Assembly (NCBI GenBank): GCA_963754575.1
Contig: CAVWGQ010000006.1
Span: forward strand, 121,853 to 185,852
Reading direction: 5' to 3'
DNA from: an uncultured Actinomycetota bacterium
GTDB lineage: Bacteria > Actinomycetota > Actinomycetes > Propionibacteriales > Nocardioidaceae
DNA length: 64,000 nucleotides
The notes beneath the pieces are model-generated. The model saw nothing but the letters and a program-made list of their open reading frames with translations. It searched no databases and had not been told where the DNA came from. The translations under genes and the position numbers were made by a program. Shown here one piece after another: positions 2,379-8,388 of the stretch (position 1 is the first letter of the stretch; every line of letters starts with the position of its first letter).

Positions 2379-4814
2379 ATGCACGTCTCTTCTGCGCGCT
2401 TGCGCAACCTGTTCCTGGCACTGCTGGTCGCGGTGACCGGCATGGTGGTGCTCGCCGGCCCGGCCGTGGCACACCAGGGCAACATCACCGTCACCCAGAA
2501 GGCATGCGTCGACGGTGACACCGTCCGTGTGACCTACCAGGTCTCCTGGTCCGCCGTCCCGCTCAACGCACGCGGCACGCACGTGTTCAGCCGCACCGGC
2601 ACCGGCACCTTCAACGGTGCCTGGGACGACACGGCGTCGAAGGCAGCCGCGTGGGCCGACGTCGACCGCGGCGCGCTCAACAGCGAGTCGGGCTCCCGGT
2701 CCTGGACCGTCGAGCTGGACAAGTCGCAGTTCAGCGGCACCACGTCGGGCAACGGGCCCTGGGAGTACGCCTACTTCCCCTGGACCAACGGCAACACCGG
2801 CTCCCGCTTCCACGACACCCGCGTCGAGGGCTTCGACTGGAACCTCTGCGTGCAGGTCCCCGAGGGTCTCGAGATCTGCCACGCCACCGGTGCGACGCCC
2901 CAGACGACCACGATCGAGCAGGTCCGCAAGTACGAGAGCATCCGCCCCTCCGGCACCAGCCAGCTCAGCGGCCACGTCGGCGCCAGTCACCAGAACGGCC
3001 TCGACATCATCCCGCCGATCCTCGGCTACCTGCCGAACGGGCAGAACTGGACGGCGTACGGCCAGGAGGTCTGGAACGGCATCGACGGCGAGCACTGCGA
3101 GGTGCCCCGCAGCGACGCGACCGCGTCGGTGACGGTGACCGACCCGACCTGCCAGTCGGTCTCGGGCGTCACCTTCAACCCCGTCAACGCCACGGCCACC
3201 CCGGGGAACCCGAACCTCGAGCCGGGCACGCACAGCGTGACGTTCACCGCCGACTCCGGTCACCGCTTCGCGGACGGCCAGCGCACCAGGACGGTGCAGT
3301 ACACCGTGGTCGAGCGGCTCAGCGCCGATCTCGACCGGTGCGCGGCGAAGGACGCGACCGCGAGGGTCGAGCTGGTCTCGGACGAGTCCTGCACGAAACC
3401 GTCGGTGGTGTCGTTCGCCACGACCCGCGCCTCGGCGAGCCCCGCTGCAGCAGCGACGGCCCCGGGCACCTACTCGGTCACGTTCACCGCTGACTCCGGT
3501 CACCGGTTCGCCGACGGGGACCGCACGAGGACGGTTACCTACACGATCGATCCGACGCTCTCGGCCGACGAGGACCTGTGTGCGGCGAAGGACGCGGCCG
3601 CCAGCGTGGAGCTGGGGTCGGAGGAGTCCTGCACCACGCCTTCCGTCGTCACGTTCACGACGAGCAACGCCACGGCCGACCCGGCGGTGCCTGCGACGGC
3701 CCCCGGCGACCACTCGGTCACGTTCACCGCTGACTCCGGTCACCGGTTCGCCGATGGGGACCGCACGAGGACGGTTACCTACACGATCGATCCGACGCTC
3801 TCGGCCGACGAGGACCTGTGTGCGGCGAAGGACGCGGCCGCCAGCGTGGAGCTGGGGTCGGAGGAGTCCTGCACCACGCCCTCCGTCGTCACGTTCACGA
3901 CGAGCAACGCCACGGCCGACCCGGCGGTGCCTGCCACGGCCCCCGGCGACCACTCGGTCACGTTCACCGTCGACTCCGGTCACCGGTTCGCCGACGGCGC
4001 GCGGACGCTGACGGTGGACTACACGGTCGTGGGCCCGATCGACGCCGATGACGACCAGTGCGCGACAACTGACGCCTCGGCTGCGGTGGAGATCGTCACC
4101 GACGCGACCTGCACGAGCCCGTCGGTCGTCACGTTCACGGCGGCCCACGCCACCGCGAGCCCGGCGACGCCGGCGAGCGAGGTGGGCGACCACTCGGTGA
4201 CGTTCACGGCCGACGCGGGTCACCGGTTCGCCAACGGCAGCCGCACCCTGTCCATGCCCTACACGGTCCTCGGTCCGATCGACGGGGACGACGACCTGTG
4301 CGCCCAGAGCGATGCAGTGGCGGCACTCTTCGCCACCGACGCGACCTGCCTCGCCGGCGAGACCCTGGTGCTCGGTGACCCGGTGTTCGCGACCTGGGGC
4401 GAGCCGACCCTGAAGGAGGGGCCGGGTGACTACTCGGTGGTGGCCACGGCCGAGCCGGGTCACCGGTTCGCGAACGGTGAGCGCACGCAGAGCTTCGCCG
4501 GCTCGCTCGAGGGTCCGCGGGACCCGCTGGGCGAGGACTGCCTGGAGGTCGCGGGCGAGGAGGAGACCCAGCCCGTCGATCACGAGATGACGACCACCGG
4601 GTCGGCCACGGCGCCGACCACCGGGCCGACCACCGGGCCGACCACCGGGCCGACCGAGGTCCCGACCGAGGTCCCGACCGCGGTCGACGCGGGCGAGGCC
4701 GGGCGGTCCCCGTTCGACTCCGACCGCCACCCGCTGTGGCTGCTGGTCCTCGGCGGCGGCCTCGGCCTCATCGGCTTCGCCGGCTCGCGCCGGCGGAAGG
4801 CGGCGATCCGGTAG
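2379..4814 (+). CDS. Secreted repeat-rich surface protein with putative sortase sorting signal (VPTAVDAG + TM + basic tail)
   Basis: RBS GGAAGGA before ATG 2379; signal peptide; about six 80-aa Cys-containing repeats; PTTG/PTEV linker; hydrophobic C-terminus followed by RRRK. Confidence 0.8.
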   Translation: MHVSSARLRNLFLALLVAVTGMVVLAGPAVAHQGNITVTQKACVDGDTVRVTYQVSWSAVPLNARGTHVFSRTGTGTFNGAWDDTASKAAAWADVDRGALNSESGSRSWTVELDKSQFSGTTSGNGPWEYAYFPWTNGNTGSRFHDTRVEGFDWNLCVQVPEGLEICHATGATPQTTTIEQVRKYESIRPSGTSQLSGHVGASHQNGLDIIPPILGYLPNGQNWTAYGQEVWNGIDGEHCEVPRSDATASVTVTDPTCQSVSGVTFNPVNATATPGNPNLEPGTHSVTFTADSGHRFADGQRTRTVQYTVVERLSADLDRCAAKDATARVELVSDESCTKPSVVSFATTRASASPAAAATAPGTYSVTFTADSGHRFADGDRTRTVTYTIDPTLSADEDLCAAKDAAASVELGSEESCTTPSVVTFTTSNATADPAVPATAPGDHSVTFTADSGHRFADGDRTRTVTYTIDPTLSADEDLCAAKDAAASVELGSEESCTTPSVVTFTTSNATADPAVPATAPGDHSVTFTVDSGHRFADGARTLTVDYTVVGPIDADDDQCATTDASAAVEIVTDATCTSPSVVTFTAAHATASPATPASEVGDHSVTFTADAGHRFANGSRTLSMPYTVLGPIDGDDDLCAQSDAVAALFATDATCLAGETLVLGDPVFATWGEPTLKEGPGDYSVVATAEPGHRFANGERTQSFAGSLEGPRDPLGEDCLEVAGEEETQPVDHEMTTTGSATAPTTGPTTGPTTGPTEVPTEVPTAVDAGEAGRSPFDSDRHPLWLLVLGGGLGLIGFAGSRRRKAAIR
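3105..4545 (+). repeat. Intragenic 240-bp (80-aa) tandem repeats, about six units
   Basis: Recurring ..SVTFTADSGHRFADG.RT..Y.. motif at 240-bp period; copies at about 3473-3712 and 3713-3952 are nearly identical at DNA level. Confidence 0.95.
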
Positions 4815-4855
4815 CCCACGACCGGACGCCGTGCCCGAGGGCCCGGAGCGCAAGG

Positions 4856-4904
4856 ACAGCGCGGTGGATCGGTGGCACCCACTGGCACCGATCCACCGCG
4901 CTGT
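4856..4904. terminator. Perfect 19-bp-stem inverted repeat between convergent genes
   Basis: ACAGCGCGGTGGATCGGTG (4856-4874) pairs with CACCGATCCACCGCGCTGT (4886-4904); a second hairpin GGGTGACCTC/GAGGTCACCC follows. Confidence 0.7.
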
Positions 4905-5028
4905 TCCCGGTGGGTGACCTCGTGAGAGGTCACCCGACGACGTGCTGGGGCAGGCTGGCAGCCCACCACCGGCCTGCCCCGGAAGGACTCCCGCTGTGCA
5001 CGGCGGGGCACTTCCTGCACGTCGCGGT

Positions 5029-5544
5029 CTAGGAGGCGTCCCCGAAGTTGAGGACGCCGACGGTGCGGCCCTGGCCGTCGACCTTCACGGCGATGCCGGC
5101 CCAGCGGGCGCGCGGCTTCATGATCACCGCGCGGTGGCTGGGGGAGTTCATCCAGGCCTGCACGGCGACGTCGGGGGTCAGGCCGCTTCCTCGGACCAGC
5201 GTCTCGCCGGTCCACATCAGGTCGCACTGCTTGATGACCGTCATCTGGTCACGGTGCACGAAGTCGCCGGTGCGCTTGATCCGCCGCGCCCACTGCTCCG
5301 ACTTGCCGTCGACGCAGGACTGGAAGAGGCGGACCTTCTGCAGACCCGCGTCCACCCGCGCCTTGTTGATCTTCAGCAGGATCCGGTTCTCGAACTCGTT
5401 GAGGTTCCGCTGGGGGTCGACCCCGGGGTCCGTGGAGGGCGCCCAGGTCTTCGCCTGGACGGGCGAGCTGAGGACGGCACTGACGCCGACCACCACGAGG
5501 AGGGCGAGAGCGGCTGCGGAGAGCAGTCGAGCGAGGTGTCGCAT
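5029..5544 (-). CDS. Secreted CAP/SCP domain protein
   Basis: Signal peptide; INKAR, GETL and AWMNSPSHRAVI motifs typical of CAP domains. Confidence 0.9.
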   Translation of the reverse strand: MRHLARLLSAAALALLVVVGVSAVLSSPVQAKTWAPSTDPGVDPQRNLNEFENRILLKINKARVDAGLQKVRLFQSCVDGKSEQWARRIKRTGDFVHRDQMTVIKQCDLMWTGETLVRGSGLTPDVAVQAWMNSPSHRAVIMKPRARWAGIAVKVDGQGRTVGVLNFGDAS

Positions 5545-5820
5545 GGGGGGTCTCCGTGTGGTCTGGCCGCCGGGGTTCGGCCGTGGGCTTCGGCCGCTGG
5601 GTGGGCGACCGTGCGGAGGTCGAGGGGGTCGACCGCCTGGGGGGGACGACCTCCGGCGGGGGGTACCGGTGGCCGTCCTGTTGCCTTCGTTACTTCCGGA
5701 GGCGATGTGCACAGTTTGGTAACAGTGACCGCTCGACGGCAATAGTCCGAACGGGCCATTTGTGGGCTAGGGCATCCCGACCACCCGCGCGGATTTCGGC
5801 CGTGCCGGATACTGAGCAGC

Positions 5821-6489
5821 ATGAGTGGCGAGCCCCGGACCCGCGCGGCCTCCGGGTGGCTGACCCGGGTGCTGTTGGTCGTCGGGGTCCTCCTCGTGGT
5901 CGGCGGGCTGGCGGCGTGGTGGGCGCAGCCCGCCGAGGAGTCGCCCGTGCGGGCCGGCGATCCCGCGGCACCCTCGGACCCGGCGACCTCGCCGGTCGAC
6001 CAGGAGGTCGTGGAGCCGACCAGGCTGCCCCGGGCCCAGCAGGTTGCGACCGTGCCGGGCGCTCCGGATCGGCTCGTCGTCCCGGCACTGTCCATCGACG
6101 CACCCGTCGTCCCGATCGGGGCTCCCGGCGGCGTCCTGACGCCACCGGCCGACCCACAGACTCTCGGCTGGTGGGCCGACGGCGCCCGACCGGGAGCAGG
6201 CCATGGGTCCGCCCTCGTCACCGGGCACACCGTCCACACGGGCGGCGGCGCCATGGACGACCTCGAGAAGCTCGAGCTCGGCGACCGGGTCTGGATGCAG
6301 ACCGACCGGGGCCGGATCGGCTACGACGTACGCCGGGTCGCGGTGCTCGGCAAGGGAGAGCTGGCCGAGCGCGCCCAGCAGCTCTTCGACCAGGAGGTCC
6401 CCGGCCGCCTGGTGCTCATCACGTGCGAGGACTGGAACGGTGCCGAGTACCTCAGCAACGTCGTGGTCACCGCCACTCCCGCCGCCTGA
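5821..6489 (+). CDS. Class F sortase
   Basis: N-terminal TM anchor; P.RL.VPALSIDAPV, GWW, GH and LVLITC..Y.SNVVV motifs (His/Cys/Asn arrangement seen in class F). Confidence 0.9.
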   Translation: MSGEPRTRAASGWLTRVLLVVGVLLVVGGLAAWWAQPAEESPVRAGDPAAPSDPATSPVDQEVVEPTRLPRAQQVATVPGAPDRLVVPALSIDAPVVPIGAPGGVLTPPADPQTLGWWADGARPGAGHGSALVTGHTVHTGGGAMDDLEKLELGDRVWMQTDRGRIGYDVRRVAVLGKGELAERAQQLFDQEVPGRLVLITCEDWNGAEYLSNVVVTATPAA

Positions 6490-6662
6490 CGAGCTCGCAG
6501 ACCTCGCGGCCGCGCAGGCGTGAAAAAGTAGTTGACGTTGTGACGACCTGGCCGTAACTCCCTCGGAGCGAGTTCGTTGAGGAGAAGACATTCGCACCGC
6601 GTCCGCCACATATCGGACGCGGATCCGGGCCGGGGGGCCCGGGACAGCCGGGGGACTCTCCA

Positions 6663-7790
6663 GTGACCACCACCATCCGTGCGCGCACGCGCATCCTCGC
6701 GGCGTCGACCGCACTCGCGGTCTCCGCCCTCGGCGTGACCACGGCCGCGAGCGCCGCCCCCGGCAAGGCGCCGGGCCAGGAGCAGCGCAGCAGCCACGCC
6801 CAGTCTCGCGCGCAGTCGCACGGCGAGCACCAGAGCAAGCCCGGGGGCAGCTCCCACCAGAAGTCCGCGAGCACGGCGCAGGGTTCGCACGCCCCGACGC
6901 CGGGGCGTGGCGGGGGGCGGGCCGAGGCGCCCGGGCAGCAGCGGCAGCAGCCCACCGCGAGCGGCAAGCCCCGCAGCGGCCAGGACGGCACGGGACGGGG
7001 CGGGAAGGACCCGGCCGGCAACAACGGCACCGTCAAGATCACGCCCCACGGCGAGGTCGACGGCATCCCGCAGAACACGCCCCACGTCGGCTGCGTGTTC
7101 GACGTGGAGTGGTACGGCTTCGACGACGGTGACGACATCGTCTCCGAGGTCACCTTCGAGGCCTGGGCACCCACGCGCGCGCCGATGACCGTCGATGGTC
7201 CCGCCCAGGTCTTCGTCGGCGGCGACCCGGCCTCCGGAGCCGGCACCGACAGCGGTTTCGACGGTGAGGCGACGTACCGGCTCTCCTTCGACGGCGAGCC
7301 GCACCCGCGACAGGGCCACCACGTCAAGCTCACCATCCACACGCCCGGCTCGCAGGGTGCCGACACCAAGCACAAGGTGTTCTGGGTCGAGGACTGCGAG
7401 ACGGAGGGTCCCGAGACGCCGGACAGCCCCGAGACGCCGGACAGCCCGGACACTCCCGGCACCCCGGAGGTCGAGGGGGAGCAGGGCGTCGACACCCCGG
7501 AGGTCGAGGGCGAGCAGGGCGTCGACACCCCGGAGGTCGAGGGCGATCAGGGCGTCGACACCCCCGACGCGGGGAACGACATCGAGGTCGCCGGCGAGCA
7601 GGGCGTCGCCTCCCAGGGCGGCGACACGCCGGCCGGCGCACCGGCGGCGATTCCCTCCGCGGTCGACGCCGGGATCGACGCCGGCGTCACTGCGGCTCGC
7701 TGGGTCGCCACCCCGGGCGGGCTGTTCGCAGCCCTGCTCGGCCTGCTGACCCTCGCCGCCGGTCTCCTGCTCCGACGCCGGGGAGCCTGA
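6663..7790 (+). CDS. Secreted surface protein with acidic repeats and putative sorting signal (IPSAVDAG + TM + RRR)
   Basis: Signal peptide; core domain NNGTVKI..PHVGC..KHKVFWVEDC; PETPDS and EVEGEQGVDTP repeats; hydrophobic C-terminus followed by RRR. Confidence 0.8.
   Translation: MTTTIRARTRILAASTALAVSALGVTTAASAAPGKAPGQEQRSSHAQSRAQSHGEHQSKPGGSSHQKSASTAQGSHAPTPGRGGGRAEAPGQQRQQPTASGKPRSGQDGTGRGGKDPAGNNGTVKITPHGEVDGIPQNTPHVGCVFDVEWYGFDDGDDIVSEVTFEAWAPTRAPMTVDGPAQVFVGGDPASGAGTDSGFDGEATYRLSFDGEPHPRQGHHVKLTIHTPGSQGADTKHKVFWVEDCETEGPETPDSPETPDSPDTPGTPEVEGEQGVDTPEVEGEQGVDTPEVEGDQGVDTPDAGNDIEVAGEQGVASQGGDTPAGAPAAIPSAVDAGIDAGVTAARWVATPGGLFAALLGLLTLAAGLLLRRRGA
7413..7565 (+). repeat. Intragenic 18-bp and 33-bp tandem repeats
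   Basis: GAGACGCCGGACAGCCC(C/G) x2 plus one degenerate copy, then GAGGTCGAGGG.GA.CAGGGCGTCGACACCCC. x3. Confidence 0.9.
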
Positions 7791-7798
7791 CCCACGCG

Positions 7799-7836
7799 AC
7801 ACGGCGGCCGCCCCCGCAAGAGCGCGGCCGCCGTGT
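7799..7836. terminator. 13-bp-stem hairpin between convergent genes
   Basis: ACACGGCGGCCGC pairs with GCGGCCGCCGTGT. Confidence 0.65.
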
Positions 7837-7848
7837 GCGTGCCGGGCG

Positions 7849-8388
7849 TCAGTGCTGGTAGGTGCCGTGGATGATCGCGCGGCCGAGCGTCTTGAACGCG
7901 AGGTTGAAGCTCATCACGGCGTTCGACGCGTCGGCGTCGATGCCGAGGGTCTCCTCGCCCACGGCGTGCACCACGAAGAAGTAGCGGTGCGGCTGGTCGT
8001 TCGGCGGGGGAGCGGCGCCCATGAACCCGGCCTGTCCGCCGTCGTTGCGCAGCATGAACGCCGCGCCGGGGAGATCCGCCCCGACCTCGCCCGCTCCCGT
8101 CTGCAGCGACGAGACGTCTGCCGGGAGGTCGACCAGCGCCCAGTGCCAGAAGCCGCTCGGCGTCGGGGCATCGGGATCGAAGCAGGTGACCACGAAGGAC
8201 TTCGTCCCCTCCGGGGCGCCGGACCACGACAGCTGCGGCGAGGTGTTGCCGGCCTCCGCCACCTGGTCGTCCTTGAGGGCGGCTCCGTCGGTCACGTCGT
8301 CGCTGGTGACCGTGAAGCCGGGTCGTGGCGGCAACAGGTCGTAGGGGTTGGGGCTGACTGGTCGTTCGATCGTCGTGTCCACACTCAT
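7849..8388 (-). CDS. YbhB/YbcL family (PEBP/RKIP-like) protein
   Basis: SPQLSW, DPDAPT..FWHW and GAAPPP.D.PHRYFF motifs. Confidence 0.92.
   Translation of the reverse strand: MSVDTTIERPVSPNPYDLLPPRPGFTVTSDDVTDGAALKDDQVAEAGNTSPQLSWSGAPEGTKSFVVTCFDPDAPTPSGFWHWALVDLPADVSSLQTGAGEVGADLPGAAFMLRNDGGQAGFMGAAPPPNDQPHRYFFVVHAVGEETLGIDADASNAVMSFNLAFKTLGRAIIHGTYQH

What the first reader, a model, noticed from the sequence alone, without database searches (positions are those of the whole stretch)
2379..7790. Class F sortase flanked by two candidate substrates sharing a non-LPXTG signal, P[TS]AVDAG
Seen in sequence: the protein at 2379-4814 ends EVPTAVDAG (VPTAVDAG at 4671-4694), then a spacer, TM helix and RRRK. 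The protein at 6663-7790 ends AIPSAVDAG (IPSAVDAG at 7650-7673), then a spacer, TM helix and RRR. The two are otherwise unrelated and neither has LPXTG. A class F sortase and a secreted CAP protein lie between them. Established knowledge: class F sortases are poorly characterised and sortases often cluster with their substrates. Inference: [VI]P[TS]AVDAG is the recognition motif of this enzyme.
Basis: partly seen in the sequence, partly recalled or inferred. Interest (0 to 1): 0.65.

Follow-up and report, generated by a model that had tools for sequence, protein, structure and literature searches.

The report
Sortase with its own VPTAVDAG signal
A Nocardioides bacterium encodes a divergent class F-like sortase beside secreted proteins whose tails carry VPTAVDAG instead of the textbook LPXTG; comparison with about 200 genomes indicates this tail is the enzyme's own sorting signal, which gives a poorly understood enzyme class candidate natural substrates to test.

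Summary
VPTAVDAG (4671-4694) and IPSAVDAG (7650-7673) each sit 38-39 residues before the stop of an unrelated secreted protein. Each is followed by a spacer, a membrane helix and RRR(K).

- **Not chance.** P[TS]AVDAG occurs only three times in the six-frame translation of the genome. All three have this layout.
- **Neighbourhood.** About 74 of 80 related sortase loci carry a same-strand gene ending [VLA]-P-[TSN]-x-[VI]-[DNEAS]-[AS]-G, then spacer, helix and basic tail. It usually lies immediately upstream of the sortase (median gap 53 bp).
- **Co-occurrence.** In 121 Nocardioidaceae genomes, tail and sortase subfamily co-occur (36/10/1/74, Fisher p = 2e-20).
- **The enzyme.** It has a sortase fold with conserved His136 and Cys202. 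It shows the class F Y-x-x-N-V-V-V signature, but scores only 66.9 bits against NCBIfam class F (cut-off 166). It forms a clade apart from canonical class F sortases.
- **Closest known.** Those canonical enzymes, in the same bacterial family, sit beside tails of the catalogued GVDTG type (NF058571). Our tails do not reach that model's cut-off.

AVDAG is therefore a lineage-specific relative of GVDTG, with Ala where Thr precedes the cut site. Other actinobacterial families show VPTxVPAG. I found nothing in print on either signal, and cleavage is not demonstrated.

The parts
2379..4814 (+). Protein A, 811 aa from ATG 2379 (817 aa from GTG 2361). It is a secreted multi-repeat surface protein: signal peptide, four or so repeats of about 80 aa, a TGPT/EVPT linker and a C-terminal sorting tail.
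   Evidence: ORF. No Pfam family. 240-bp tandem repeat x4.2 at 3240-4246. A-type passenger found in 14 of 80 related loci.
4671..4694 (+). VPTAVDAG motif of protein A, 39 residues before the stop.
   Evidence: Read directly. One of only three P[TS]AVDAG occurrences in the six-frame genome. Scores 67.8 bits against the tail profile A2.
4695..4811 (+). Remainder of A's tail: charged spacer EAGRSPFDSDRH (4695-4730), hydrophobic helix PLWLLVLGGGLGLIGFAGS (4731-4787) and basic end RRRKAAIR (4788-4811).
5029..5544 (-). Secreted CAP/YkwD-type protein (171 aa from MRHLARLL), transcribed divergently from the sortase. It has no sorting tail.
   Evidence: Pfam CAP 33.6 bits. Present at the same position in 31 of 80 related loci.
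5821..6489 (+). Membrane-anchored sortase, 222 aa. N-terminal helix at residues 11-34. Catalytic His136 (6226-6228) and Cys202 in LITCEDW (6424-6426). Asn213 in YLSNVVV (6457-6459) lies where other sortases have the catalytic Arg.
   Evidence: Pfam Sortase 63 bits. NF033748 class F 66.9 bits, below the 166 cut-off. H136, C202 and N213 are invariant in 16 homologues. AF2 pLDDT 80 and sortase-fold PDB hits at probability 1.0.
6663..7790 (+). Protein B, 375 aa. It is a secreted surface protein: signal peptide, disordered region, Ig-like beta-sandwich (about residues 120-245), an acidic TPEVEGEQGVD repeat linker and a C-terminal sorting tail. This is the commonest partner of this sortase.
   Evidence: ORF. 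528 homologues, nearly all labelled 'hypothetical', with no Pfam domain. AF2 model. B-type passenger in 42 of 80 loci. 33-bp repeat at 7460-7564.
7650..7673 (+). IPSAVDAG motif of protein B, 38 residues before the stop.
   Evidence: Read directly. Scores 47.9 bits against tail profile A2.
7674..7787 (+). Remainder of B's tail: spacer IDAGVTAAR (7674-7700), hydrophobic helix (7701-7772) and RRRGA (7773-7787).
   Evidence: AF2 places a helix at residues 351-374.

Best explanation
Proposed mechanism: this is a dedicated sortase-substrate cluster of a Nocardioides species.

Proteins A and B are exported by the Sec pathway. At least one further protein elsewhere in the genome (C7:64671-65753), and probably a long chaplin (C10:20079-22523), follow the same route. 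Each is held in the membrane by its C-terminal helix and basic tail. This presents the motif A-A-V-P-T-A-V-D-A-G-[L/E]-x-G, about 10-15 residues outside the membrane, to the membrane-anchored sortase at 5821-6489.

The sortase belongs to a distinct sister clade of class F. Its hallmarks are LITCEDW and YLSNVVV, and it has His136 and Cys202. It uses this motif as its sorting signal in place of LPXTG.

By analogy with LPXT|G and with the catalogued class F signal GVDT-G, the cut would fall between Ala and Gly of AVDA|G. Cys202 would form a thioacyl intermediate. That intermediate would be resolved by the amino group of the cell-wall precursor, which in this genus (by textbook knowledge) carries LL-diaminopimelate with a glycine bridge. 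The passenger would end up covalently on the wall.

What is shown:
- the motif and its fixed geometry;
- its restriction to C-termini;
- its near-exclusive genomic and phyletic pairing with this sortase clade;
- the match between enzyme clade and signal type.

What is inferred: cleavage itself, the scissile bond, the acceptor, and which sortase residues read the motif.
For: 1. Own genome. All three P[TS]AVDAG occurrences in the six-frame translation are C-terminal tails with a helix and a basic end. Two of them flank the sortase.

2. Neighbourhood. 68 of 80 related loci by strict criteria, and about 74 of 80 by looser ones, hold 89 or more same-strand ORFs with [VLA]-P-[TSN]-x-[VI]-[DNEAS]-[AS]-G, a 5-20 aa spacer, a helix and a basic tail. 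Pro2 and Gly8 are invariant.

3. The tail is carried by unrelated passengers. A and B share no similarity. The B-type passenger is in 42 loci, the A-type in 14, and other types in the rest. Hits in the global library range from 49 to 951 aa.

4. Position. A profile of the tail finds 420 cluster representatives among 1.84 billion proteins. In the best 150 the match is always at the extreme C-terminus. All 150 have a motif match within the last 70 residues, with the motif Gly a median of 44 residues from the end.

5. Phyletic pattern. In 121 Nocardioidaceae genomes: subfamily sortase with tail 36, sortase only 10, tail only 1, neither 74. Fisher p = 1.7e-20. The single 'tail only' genome has a divergent class F-like sortase right beside the tail. 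37 of 39 pairs lie within 600 bp, with a median gap of 53 bp, and some overlap by 4 nt.

6. Specificity pairing. In the same bacterial family, canonical class F sortases (NF033748, 145-186 bits) sit beside GVDTG_CTERM tails (..MPVGGVDTGxGG..). On a tree they form a clade separated by long, supported branches from the AVDAG-associated clade.

7. Other families. Related sortases in other actinobacterial families sit beside VPTEVPAG, VPTSVPAG, VPTAIPAG and VPTEIPAG tails.

8. Chaplin. The genome's long chaplin (six ChpA-C domains) ends in AVPTAVASG, a helix and RSARR. The only other long chaplin found in the family ends in canonical LPQTG, a helix and RRR. Streptomyces long chaplins are known class E sortase substrates (PMC8225981).

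9. No LPXTG or LAXTG tail protein was found in this genome.

10. The enzyme has a sortase fold, an N-terminal membrane helix, and invariant His and Cys.
Against: - There is no biochemical or proteomic evidence that any AVDAG-type or GVDTG-type tail is cut or attached.
- The only characterised class F sortase (Cutibacterium acnes) uses LPXTG (PMC8225981).
- Deleting all four class F sortases of Actinoplanes missouriensis gave no phenotype (PMC13251363).
- The canonical catalytic Arg on the last strand is absent: Asn213 is invariant there. Full transpeptidase chemistry is therefore not assured.
- The 10-20 residue charged spacer between motif and helix is longer than in textbook sorting signals.
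- Ten genomes have the sortase without a detected tail, and six of 80 loci lack an adjacent tail.
- Some tails lie far from the sortase: 2.8 Mb away in G096, and the C7 and C10 proteins in this genome.
- The Fisher test is not corrected for shared ancestry.
- The chaplin tail and a Pro-less VATAVDAG candidate score poorly against the tail profile.
Confidence: 0.78

Rival explanations
1. The tail is only a C-terminal membrane anchor with a conserved juxtamembrane motif. The sortase homologue acts as a protease that sheds or matures these proteins. Alternatively it binds them without catalysis, and no covalent wall attachment occurs.
For: The canonical catalytic Arg is replaced by an invariant Asn. 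The spacer between motif and helix is long and charged. The class F quadruple mutant of A. missouriensis has no phenotype (PMC13251363). No class F structure appeared among the solved-structure matches, and no natural class F substrate is known.
Against: His and Cys are invariant, and the sortase fold and membrane topology are kept. The tripartite layout matches sortase signals. Canonical class F enzymes carry the same Asn, and the one characterised class F enzyme is reported as an active transpeptidase (PMC8225981). The chaplin family elsewhere uses true LPXTG or LAXTG signals at the same position.
Confidence: 0.1
2. The sortase is a pilus-type polymerase like class C. Protein B (Ig-like) would be a pilin joined head-to-tail through the motif, and wall anchoring would be done by another sortase.
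For: The closest solved structures by fold are class C pilus sortases. B has an Ig-like beta-sandwich. The gene order, substrate gene tightly coupled to a dedicated sortase, resembles pilus islands. The genome also has two class E-like sortases that could do the anchoring.
Against: I noticed no pilin-type YPKN Lys motif or E-box in B, though this was by inspection only. The same tail sits on very different passengers, including a chaplin and a multi-repeat protein. Fold similarity to class C is no stronger than to classes A, D and E. Most loci have a single substrate gene and not a tip/shaft/base set.
Confidence: 0.06
3. The motif is read by a different enzyme, for example the two class E-like lipoprotein sortases of this genome or an unrelated protease. 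On this view, adjacency to the class F-like gene reflects co-regulation only.
For: This genome has class E-like sortases but no LPXTG or LAXTG substrates for them. Some tails are far from the class F-like gene.
Against: Tail presence tracks the TCEDW sortase subfamily genome by genome. Tail type switches to GVDTG exactly where the neighbouring enzyme is a canonical class F.
Confidence: 0.04

Closest known systems
NCBIfam NF058571 'GVDTG sorting domain' (GVDTG_CTERM) proteins paired with class F sortases (NF033748)
   Same: Both have a tripartite C-terminal module: a Pro-containing motif ending in x-V-D-x-G, a Gly-rich spacer of about 10-15 residues, a hydrophobic helix and a basic tail. In both, the gene lies immediately upstream of a class F-type sortase. 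Both occur on unrelated passengers in Actinomycetota. Some AVDAG tails give sub-threshold hits to the model at 15-25 bits.
   Different: The core is A-V-D-A-G and not G-V-D-T-G: Ala replaces the Thr before the presumed cut, and the Pro is one residue closer. Tails A, B and the chaplin tail do not hit the model at all, and the C7 tail scores 15.1 against a cut-off of 29. The partner enzyme is a separate clade (66.9 bits against 145-186 bits on NF033748). As far as I could find, neither signal has been tested experimentally or described in a paper.
Cutibacterium (Propionibacterium) acnes SrtF, the only characterised class F sortase
   Same: Both are membrane-anchored actinobacterial sortases for which NCBIfam class F is the best class match. 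Orthologues of the window's enzyme are named 'class F sortase' by NCBI.
   Different: The C. acnes enzyme is reported to use LPXTG, like class A (PMC8225981). This genome has no LPXTG proteins, and the enzyme is paired with VPTAVDAG tails. I did not compare the two sequences directly because the paper and sequence are not held.
Class E sortases with LAXTG substrates (Streptomyces SrtE1/E2 anchoring long chaplins ChpA-C)
   Same: Both are housekeeping-type actinobacterial anchoring systems using a variant motif. A long chaplin is among the candidate substrates here too (PMC8225981).
   Different: The motif is LAXTG, followed directly by the helix. The enzyme carries the His-Cys-Arg triad. The window's enzyme scores only 20.9 bits on the class E model.
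Canonical LPXTG cell-wall sorting signal (TIGR01167) and class A sortases
   Same: Both have an N-terminal signal peptide and a C-terminal motif, helix and basic tail. Both enzymes have a sortase fold with His and Cys.
   Different: There is no Leu-Pro-x-Thr-Gly. Ala occupies the position before Gly. The spacer is long. Asn sits where the catalytic Arg is. TIGR01167 gives only sub-threshold hits on the helix part.

Membership tests
Sortase superfamily (Pfam PF04203, peptidase C60) | Sortase-domain profile match above the curated cut-off | tested here: met
   63 bits against a cut-off of 26.6, covering profile positions 1-124 of 125.
Sortase superfamily (Pfam PF04203, peptidase C60) | Eight-stranded sortase beta-barrel fold with an N-terminal membrane anchor | tested here: met
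   AF2 model with pLDDT 80 and a helix at residues 11-34. Foldseek hits to class C, A, E and D sortase structures at E about 5e-9 and probability 1.0.
Sortase superfamily (Pfam PF04203, peptidase C60) | Catalytic His and Cys (TLxTC-type motif) | tested here: met
   H136 (TGHT) and C202 (LITCEDW) are invariant in 16 homologues down to 55% identity.
Sortase superfamily (Pfam PF04203, peptidase C60) | Catalytic Arg at the start of the last beta-strand (His-Cys-Arg triad, PMC8225981) | tested here: inconclusive
   No Arg follows Cys202. Asn213 is invariant in YLSNVVV at the start of predicted strand 210-220. Some canonical class F sequences also lack an Arg there. This was judged by sequence and predicted secondary structure only, with no residue-level superposition. 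An Arg elsewhere, for example the invariant R196, cannot be excluded.
Class F sortase (NCBIfam NF033748) | Score at or above the curated cut-off of 166 bits | tested here: not met
   66.9 bits, full-length match to positions 7-153 of 155. Six neighbours of GVDTG tails in the same bacterial family score 145-186 bits. Three of them pass the cut-off.
Class F sortase (NCBIfam NF033748) | Class F is the best-scoring class, and the Y-x-x-N-[VI]-V-V signature follows the TC motif | tested here: met
   Class F 66.9 bits, against 20.9 for class E and 17.1 for class C. YLSNVVV compares with YLDNVVV, YVGNTVV and YTANVVV in canonical class F.
Class F sortase (NCBIfam NF033748) | Falls inside the canonical class F clade on a tree | tested here: not met
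   Canonical, GVDTG-associated enzymes form a clade split from the window's clade by long branches with support 99/96 and 100/97. The root is uncertain.
GVDTG sorting domain (NCBIfam NF058571) | Score at or above the curated cut-off of 29 bits | tested here: not met
   The tails of A, B and the chaplin give no hit at E up to 10. The C7 tail scores 15.1 bits. The own genome has no hit over the cut-off.
GVDTG sorting domain (NCBIfam NF058571) | C-terminal motif, Gly-rich spacer, helix and basic tail, encoded beside a class F-type sortase | tested here: met
   Architecture and gene order are the same as for the GVDTG examples.
LPXTG cell-wall sorting signal (TIGR01167) | LPXTG (or LAXTG) pentapeptide | tested here: not met
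   Neither is present in A or B. TIGR01167 reaches only 12.6-15.2 bits, on the helix part, against a cut-off of 15.9.
LPXTG cell-wall sorting signal (TIGR01167) | Covalent attachment of the processed protein to peptidoglycan | not testable with these tools
   Needs biochemistry or proteomics.

The most novel reading that the evidence does not exclude
P-x-x-[V/I]-x-A-G would be a distinct sorting-signal class. It appears as VPTAVDAG in Nocardioidaceae and Kribbella, and as VPTxVPAG in other actinobacterial families. It would be read by a separate clade of class F-like sortases that work with His-Cys-Asn, without the canonical Arg. These enzymes would cut after Ala, not Thr, and attach a varied set of surface proteins to the wall, including a long chaplin. 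That would give class F-type sortases their first natural substrates and show that neither the Thr before the cut nor the Arg of the triad is obligatory for sortase chemistry.
Probability: 0.45. Interest if true: 0.68.

Novelty: new variant of a known kind. Interest (0 to 1): 0.56.

Why it matters
Class F sortases are widespread in Actinomycetota. Streptomyces coelicolor and Actinoplanes missouriensis carry several each. Yet their physiological substrates and roles are described as unknown, and the only enzyme studied was tested on LPXTG (PMC8225981, PMC13251363).

This locus and its roughly 200 relatives give a concrete and testable pairing. A defined enzyme clade is matched with a defined 8-13 residue signal and named candidate substrates.

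If confirmed, four things would follow:
- the sortase recognition repertoire would extend to a signal with Ala before the cut and a long spacer;
- the claim that all sortases need the His-Cys-Arg triad could be tested;
- many 'hypothetical proteins' of soil actinobacteria could be annotated as wall-anchored;
- a sortase/tag pair orthogonal to LPXTG might become available for protein ligation.

It would also show that the current NCBIfam models (NF033748, NF058571) miss a whole sister lineage.

Tried and rejected
- **PDB sequence search** with the sortase profile. Alignments stop at LITC, so the Arg question could not be settled that way.
- **Passenger clustering.** Single-linkage BLAST clustering of the passengers of the 150 best global hits collapsed 113 of 118 into one cluster. 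Shared low-complexity linkers are the probable cause, and the result was discarded as a count of families.
- **Chaplins.** I looked for long chaplins across the family to test systematically whether chaplins carry the tail. Only two genomes have one, so this is an anecdote and not a test.
- **Function of protein B.** The fold search gave only generic Ig-like matches (E about 3e-3) and no functional lead.
- **Promoter and terminator scans** of 4700-8000 found nothing.
- **Literature.** Searches for PTAVDAG, for GVDTG with sortase, and for Nocardioides with sortase and sorting signal found nothing relevant. The C. acnes SrtF paper is not held.
- **LALTG candidate.** I considered a protein at C27:409164-410837 whose helix contains LALTG as a class E substrate. 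The motif lies inside the helix, so it was not counted.
- **Pro-less candidate.** VATAVDAG at C7:685904-686581 scores 23 bits against the tail profile. It stays unassigned because its ORF runs on for about 100 Arg-rich residues.

Full report
**Observation.** The window is a 73% G+C actinobacterial chromosome segment. Orthologues place it in Nocardioides.

Protein A (2379-4814) continues with a 12-residue charged spacer, a 19-residue hydrophobic segment and RRRKAAIR. Protein B (6663-7790) continues with a 9-residue spacer, a 24-residue hydrophobic segment and RRRGA. Both start with signal-peptide-like N-termini and neither has LPxTG or LAxTG anywhere. They show no significant similarity to each other (best E = 0.55).

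Between them lie a CAP-domain gene on the minus strand (Pfam CAP 33.6 bits) and a sortase gene (Pfam Sortase 63 bits). The label 'class F' needs a qualifier. NF033748 is the best NCBIfam match, but at 66.9 bits against a cut-off of 166.

**Is it more than chance?** I laid the whole genome (3.73 Mb) and translated all six frames. P[TS]AVDAG occurs exactly three times in 7.46 million residues. Each occurrence lies 38-40 residues before a stop and is followed by a hydrophobic helix and a basic tail.

The third protein is a 277-aa secreted protein at C7:64671-65753, outside the window. A relaxed pattern adds a fourth: a long chaplin at C10:20079-22523 with six ChpA-C domains (Pfam 105.9 bits). It ends in AVPTAVASG, then a helix, then RSARR. 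No protein with LPXTG or LAXTG plus a helix and basic tail was found in this genome.

**Comparative test of the interpretation.** A scan of one genome per species returned 80 loci around relatives of the sortase, from Nocardioides, Kribbella and metagenome-assembled genomes.

- By strict criteria, 68 of 80 loci hold at least one ORF ending in [VLA]-P-[TSN]-x-[VI]-[DNEAS]-[AS]-G, a 5-20 residue spacer, a helix and a basic tail.
- That is 89 ORFs in all, every one on the sortase's strand. Pro2 and Gly8 are invariant, and VPTAVDAG is the commonest form at 34 of 89.
- Looser criteria recover six more loci. One of these (L024) has a tail cut short right after the motif. Six loci have none.
- The extended consensus is A-A-V-P-T-A-V-D-A-G-[L/E]-x-G.
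- The passengers differ: B-type in 42 loci, A-type in 14 and others in the rest. The CAP gene is present in only 31.

I then searched 121 Nocardioidaceae genomes (60 GTDB genera) with a 56-position profile of 67 tails (A2) and with a profile of the sortase subfamily (A1). Scoring a tail as present at 25 bits or more with the motif covered, and the sortase at 139 bits or more, gives this table: both 36, sortase only 10, tail only 1, neither 74 (Fisher p = 1.7e-20).

The single 'tail only' genome has a more divergent class F-like sortase directly beside an APTQVDAG tail. Of 39 tail-sortase pairs, 37 lie within 600 bp, with a median gap of 53 bp. The tail gene is usually the upstream one, and some pairs overlap by 4 nt. 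The p-value is not corrected for shared ancestry. Even so, the effect is large and spans many genera.

The same tail profile, run against 1.84 billion representative proteins, finds 420 clusters at E of 1e-3 or better. In the best 150, proteins of 49-951 residues, the match is always at the extreme C-terminus. All 150 have a motif match within the last 70 residues, with its Gly a median of 44 residues from the end.

**Relation to what is catalogued.** Notes from earlier agents of this scan pointed to NCBIfam NF058571, the 'GVDTG sorting domain', as a catalogued class F signal. I tested this here.

- The model exists, with 44 positions and a cut-off of 29 bits. It does not hit the tails of A, B or the chaplin at all, and gives 15.1 bits for the C7 tail.
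- In the same 121 genomes, 30 have a GVDTG_CTERM hit over the cut-off.
- Many of these tails, and all eight I fetched on purpose, lie next to sortases that score only 40-75 bits on my subfamily profile. Six such neighbouring enzymes score 145-186 bits on NF033748.
- Their tails read ..[MI]-P-x-G-G-V-D-T-G-x-G-G... Aligned from the Gly, G-V-D-T-G corresponds to A-V-D-A-G.
- A few AVDAG tails give sub-threshold GVDTG_CTERM hits of 19-25 bits.

On a maximum-likelihood tree of 111 catalytic domains, the GVDTG-associated enzymes form one clade. Long, supported branches (99/96 and 100/97) separate it from the clade that holds the window's enzyme and the AVDAG-associated enzymes. Three intermediate enzymes sit beside other variants: PEGSNAGTGG, APSGVPGG and APTQVDAG. 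Signal type therefore follows enzyme clade, as expected for cognate pairs.

A class-wide sample of 301 genomes shows related sortases in other actinobacterial families. These sit next to VPTEVPAG, VPTSVPAG, VPTAIPAG, VPTEIPAG and APTAVNAG tails.

**The enzyme.** His136 and Cys202 (LITCEDW) are invariant. The AF2 model (pLDDT 80) has an N-terminal membrane helix and a beta-barrel. It matches class C, A, E and D sortase structures at probability 1.0. No class F structure appeared among the hits.

After the Cys there is no conserved Arg. The last strand begins Y-L-S-N-V-V-V with an invariant Asn213. The same Y-x-x-N-[VI]-V-V signature is seen in the canonical class F enzymes, several of which also lack any Arg there. 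A review states that all sortases have a His-Cys-Arg triad (PMC8225981). This point deserves a structural check, which I could not make at residue level.

**The substrates.** Protein B's family comprises 528 homologues, nearly all labelled 'hypothetical', with no Pfam domain. Its model shows a signal helix, a disordered stretch, an Ig-like beta-sandwich (about residues 120-245) and a disordered acidic linker that contains the motif, followed by a C-terminal helix. PDB matches are generic Ig-like folds only. Protein A carries four or so 80-residue repeats, seen as a 240-bp tandem array at 3240-4246.

The long chaplin gives a suggestive natural comparison. Only one other genome in the family sample has a long chaplin, and it ends in canonical LPQTG, a helix and RRRPRRG. 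In Streptomyces, long chaplins are LAXTG substrates of class E sortases (PMC8225981). A known sortase-substrate family thus carries the AVxxG-type tail in this genome at the place where relatives carry LPXTG.

**Mechanism proposed.** Export by Sec, retention by the C-terminal helix and basic tail, and recognition of the motif by the membrane-anchored sortase. Then cleavage, most likely after the Ala of AVDA|G by analogy with LPXT|G, a thioacyl intermediate on Cys202, and transfer to the wall precursor. The pairing is shown. The chemistry is inferred.

Three rivals remain possible at low odds: shedding or a non-catalytic role, pilus polymerisation, and processing by the two class E-like lipoprotein sortases of this genome. 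The comparative data favour none of them.

**Novelty.** I found no paper containing PTAVDAG, or GVDTG together with sortase. Published work treats class F substrates and roles as unknown, or as LPXTG (PMC8225981, PMC13251363). The general idea, a non-LPXTG tail beside class F sortases, is already encoded in NCBIfam NF058571. Another agent of this scan also reported the same VPTxVxAG signal in a different genome.

I therefore rate this as a new variant of a known kind. It is solidly supported by genomics, untested at the bench, and of moderate interest.

Noticed in passing
outside the window: genome contigs C12:8968-9960 (+) and C6:207670-208536 (-): Two nearly identical sortase paralogues with a lipoprotein-type N-terminus (..LSGCSE..). 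They are class E-like (NF033747 61 bits, below the 160 cut-off) and have an Arg after the TLSTC motif. The genome has no LPXTG or LAXTG tail proteins for them.
   Followed up: partly
outside the window: C27:513789-515498 (-); also L083:17318-18814: This protein ends ..YLALPESGSEEDAHPSAGNG.., then about 30 aa, a helix and RRRRQ. A Nocardioides alpinus homologue reads ..YLALPASGSNADPHPSAGG.. with the same layout. It may be a substrate with an LPxSG-type motif for the class E-like sortases.
   Followed up: no
outside the window: C10:20079-22523 (-); L119:1447-3702 (-): A long chaplin with six ChpA-C domains ends in AVPTAVASG, a helix and RSARR. The only other long chaplin in 121 family genomes (G095) ends in canonical LPQTG, a helix and RRRPRRG. 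This looks like a natural swap of sorting signals on one protein family.
   Followed up: partly
window 6457-6459 (Asn213 of the sortase); L084-L105: Class F-type sortases, both canonical and this clade, carry Y-x-x-N-[VI]-V-V at the start of the last strand. Several have no Arg after the catalytic Cys, contrary to the textbook His-Cys-Arg triad.
   Followed up: partly
window 3240-4246 and 7460-7564: There are in-frame tandem repeats. Protein A has a 240-bp unit x4.2, with two of the 80-aa repeat copies identical in protein sequence. Protein B has a 33-bp unit x3.2 (TPEVEGEQGVD) just upstream of the sorting motif. A 12-bp TGPT/EVPT repeat runs into A's motif (4591-4685).
   Followed up: partly
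outside the window: C7:685904-686581 (+): A small ORF carries VATAVDAG (no Pro), a helix and QVRRGRR, and scores 23 bits on the tail profile. It could be a degenerate or variant substrate, or a chance match.
   Followed up: no
L024:7380-8987 (+); G079:C2:519702-520149; G027:C3:79321-82673; L116:1851-3126: Variation among relatives. One tail ORF stops right after VPTAVDAGI. One genome has the sortase gene split in two pieces. One has two tandem tail-sortase pairs. One has two tandem sortases with no adjacent tail.
   Followed up: no
window 5029-5544 (-): The CAP/YkwD-type secreted protein is divergently transcribed from the sortase only in the closest 31 of 80 loci, and it has no sorting tail. 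It is probably a neighbour and not a part of the system.
   Followed up: partly
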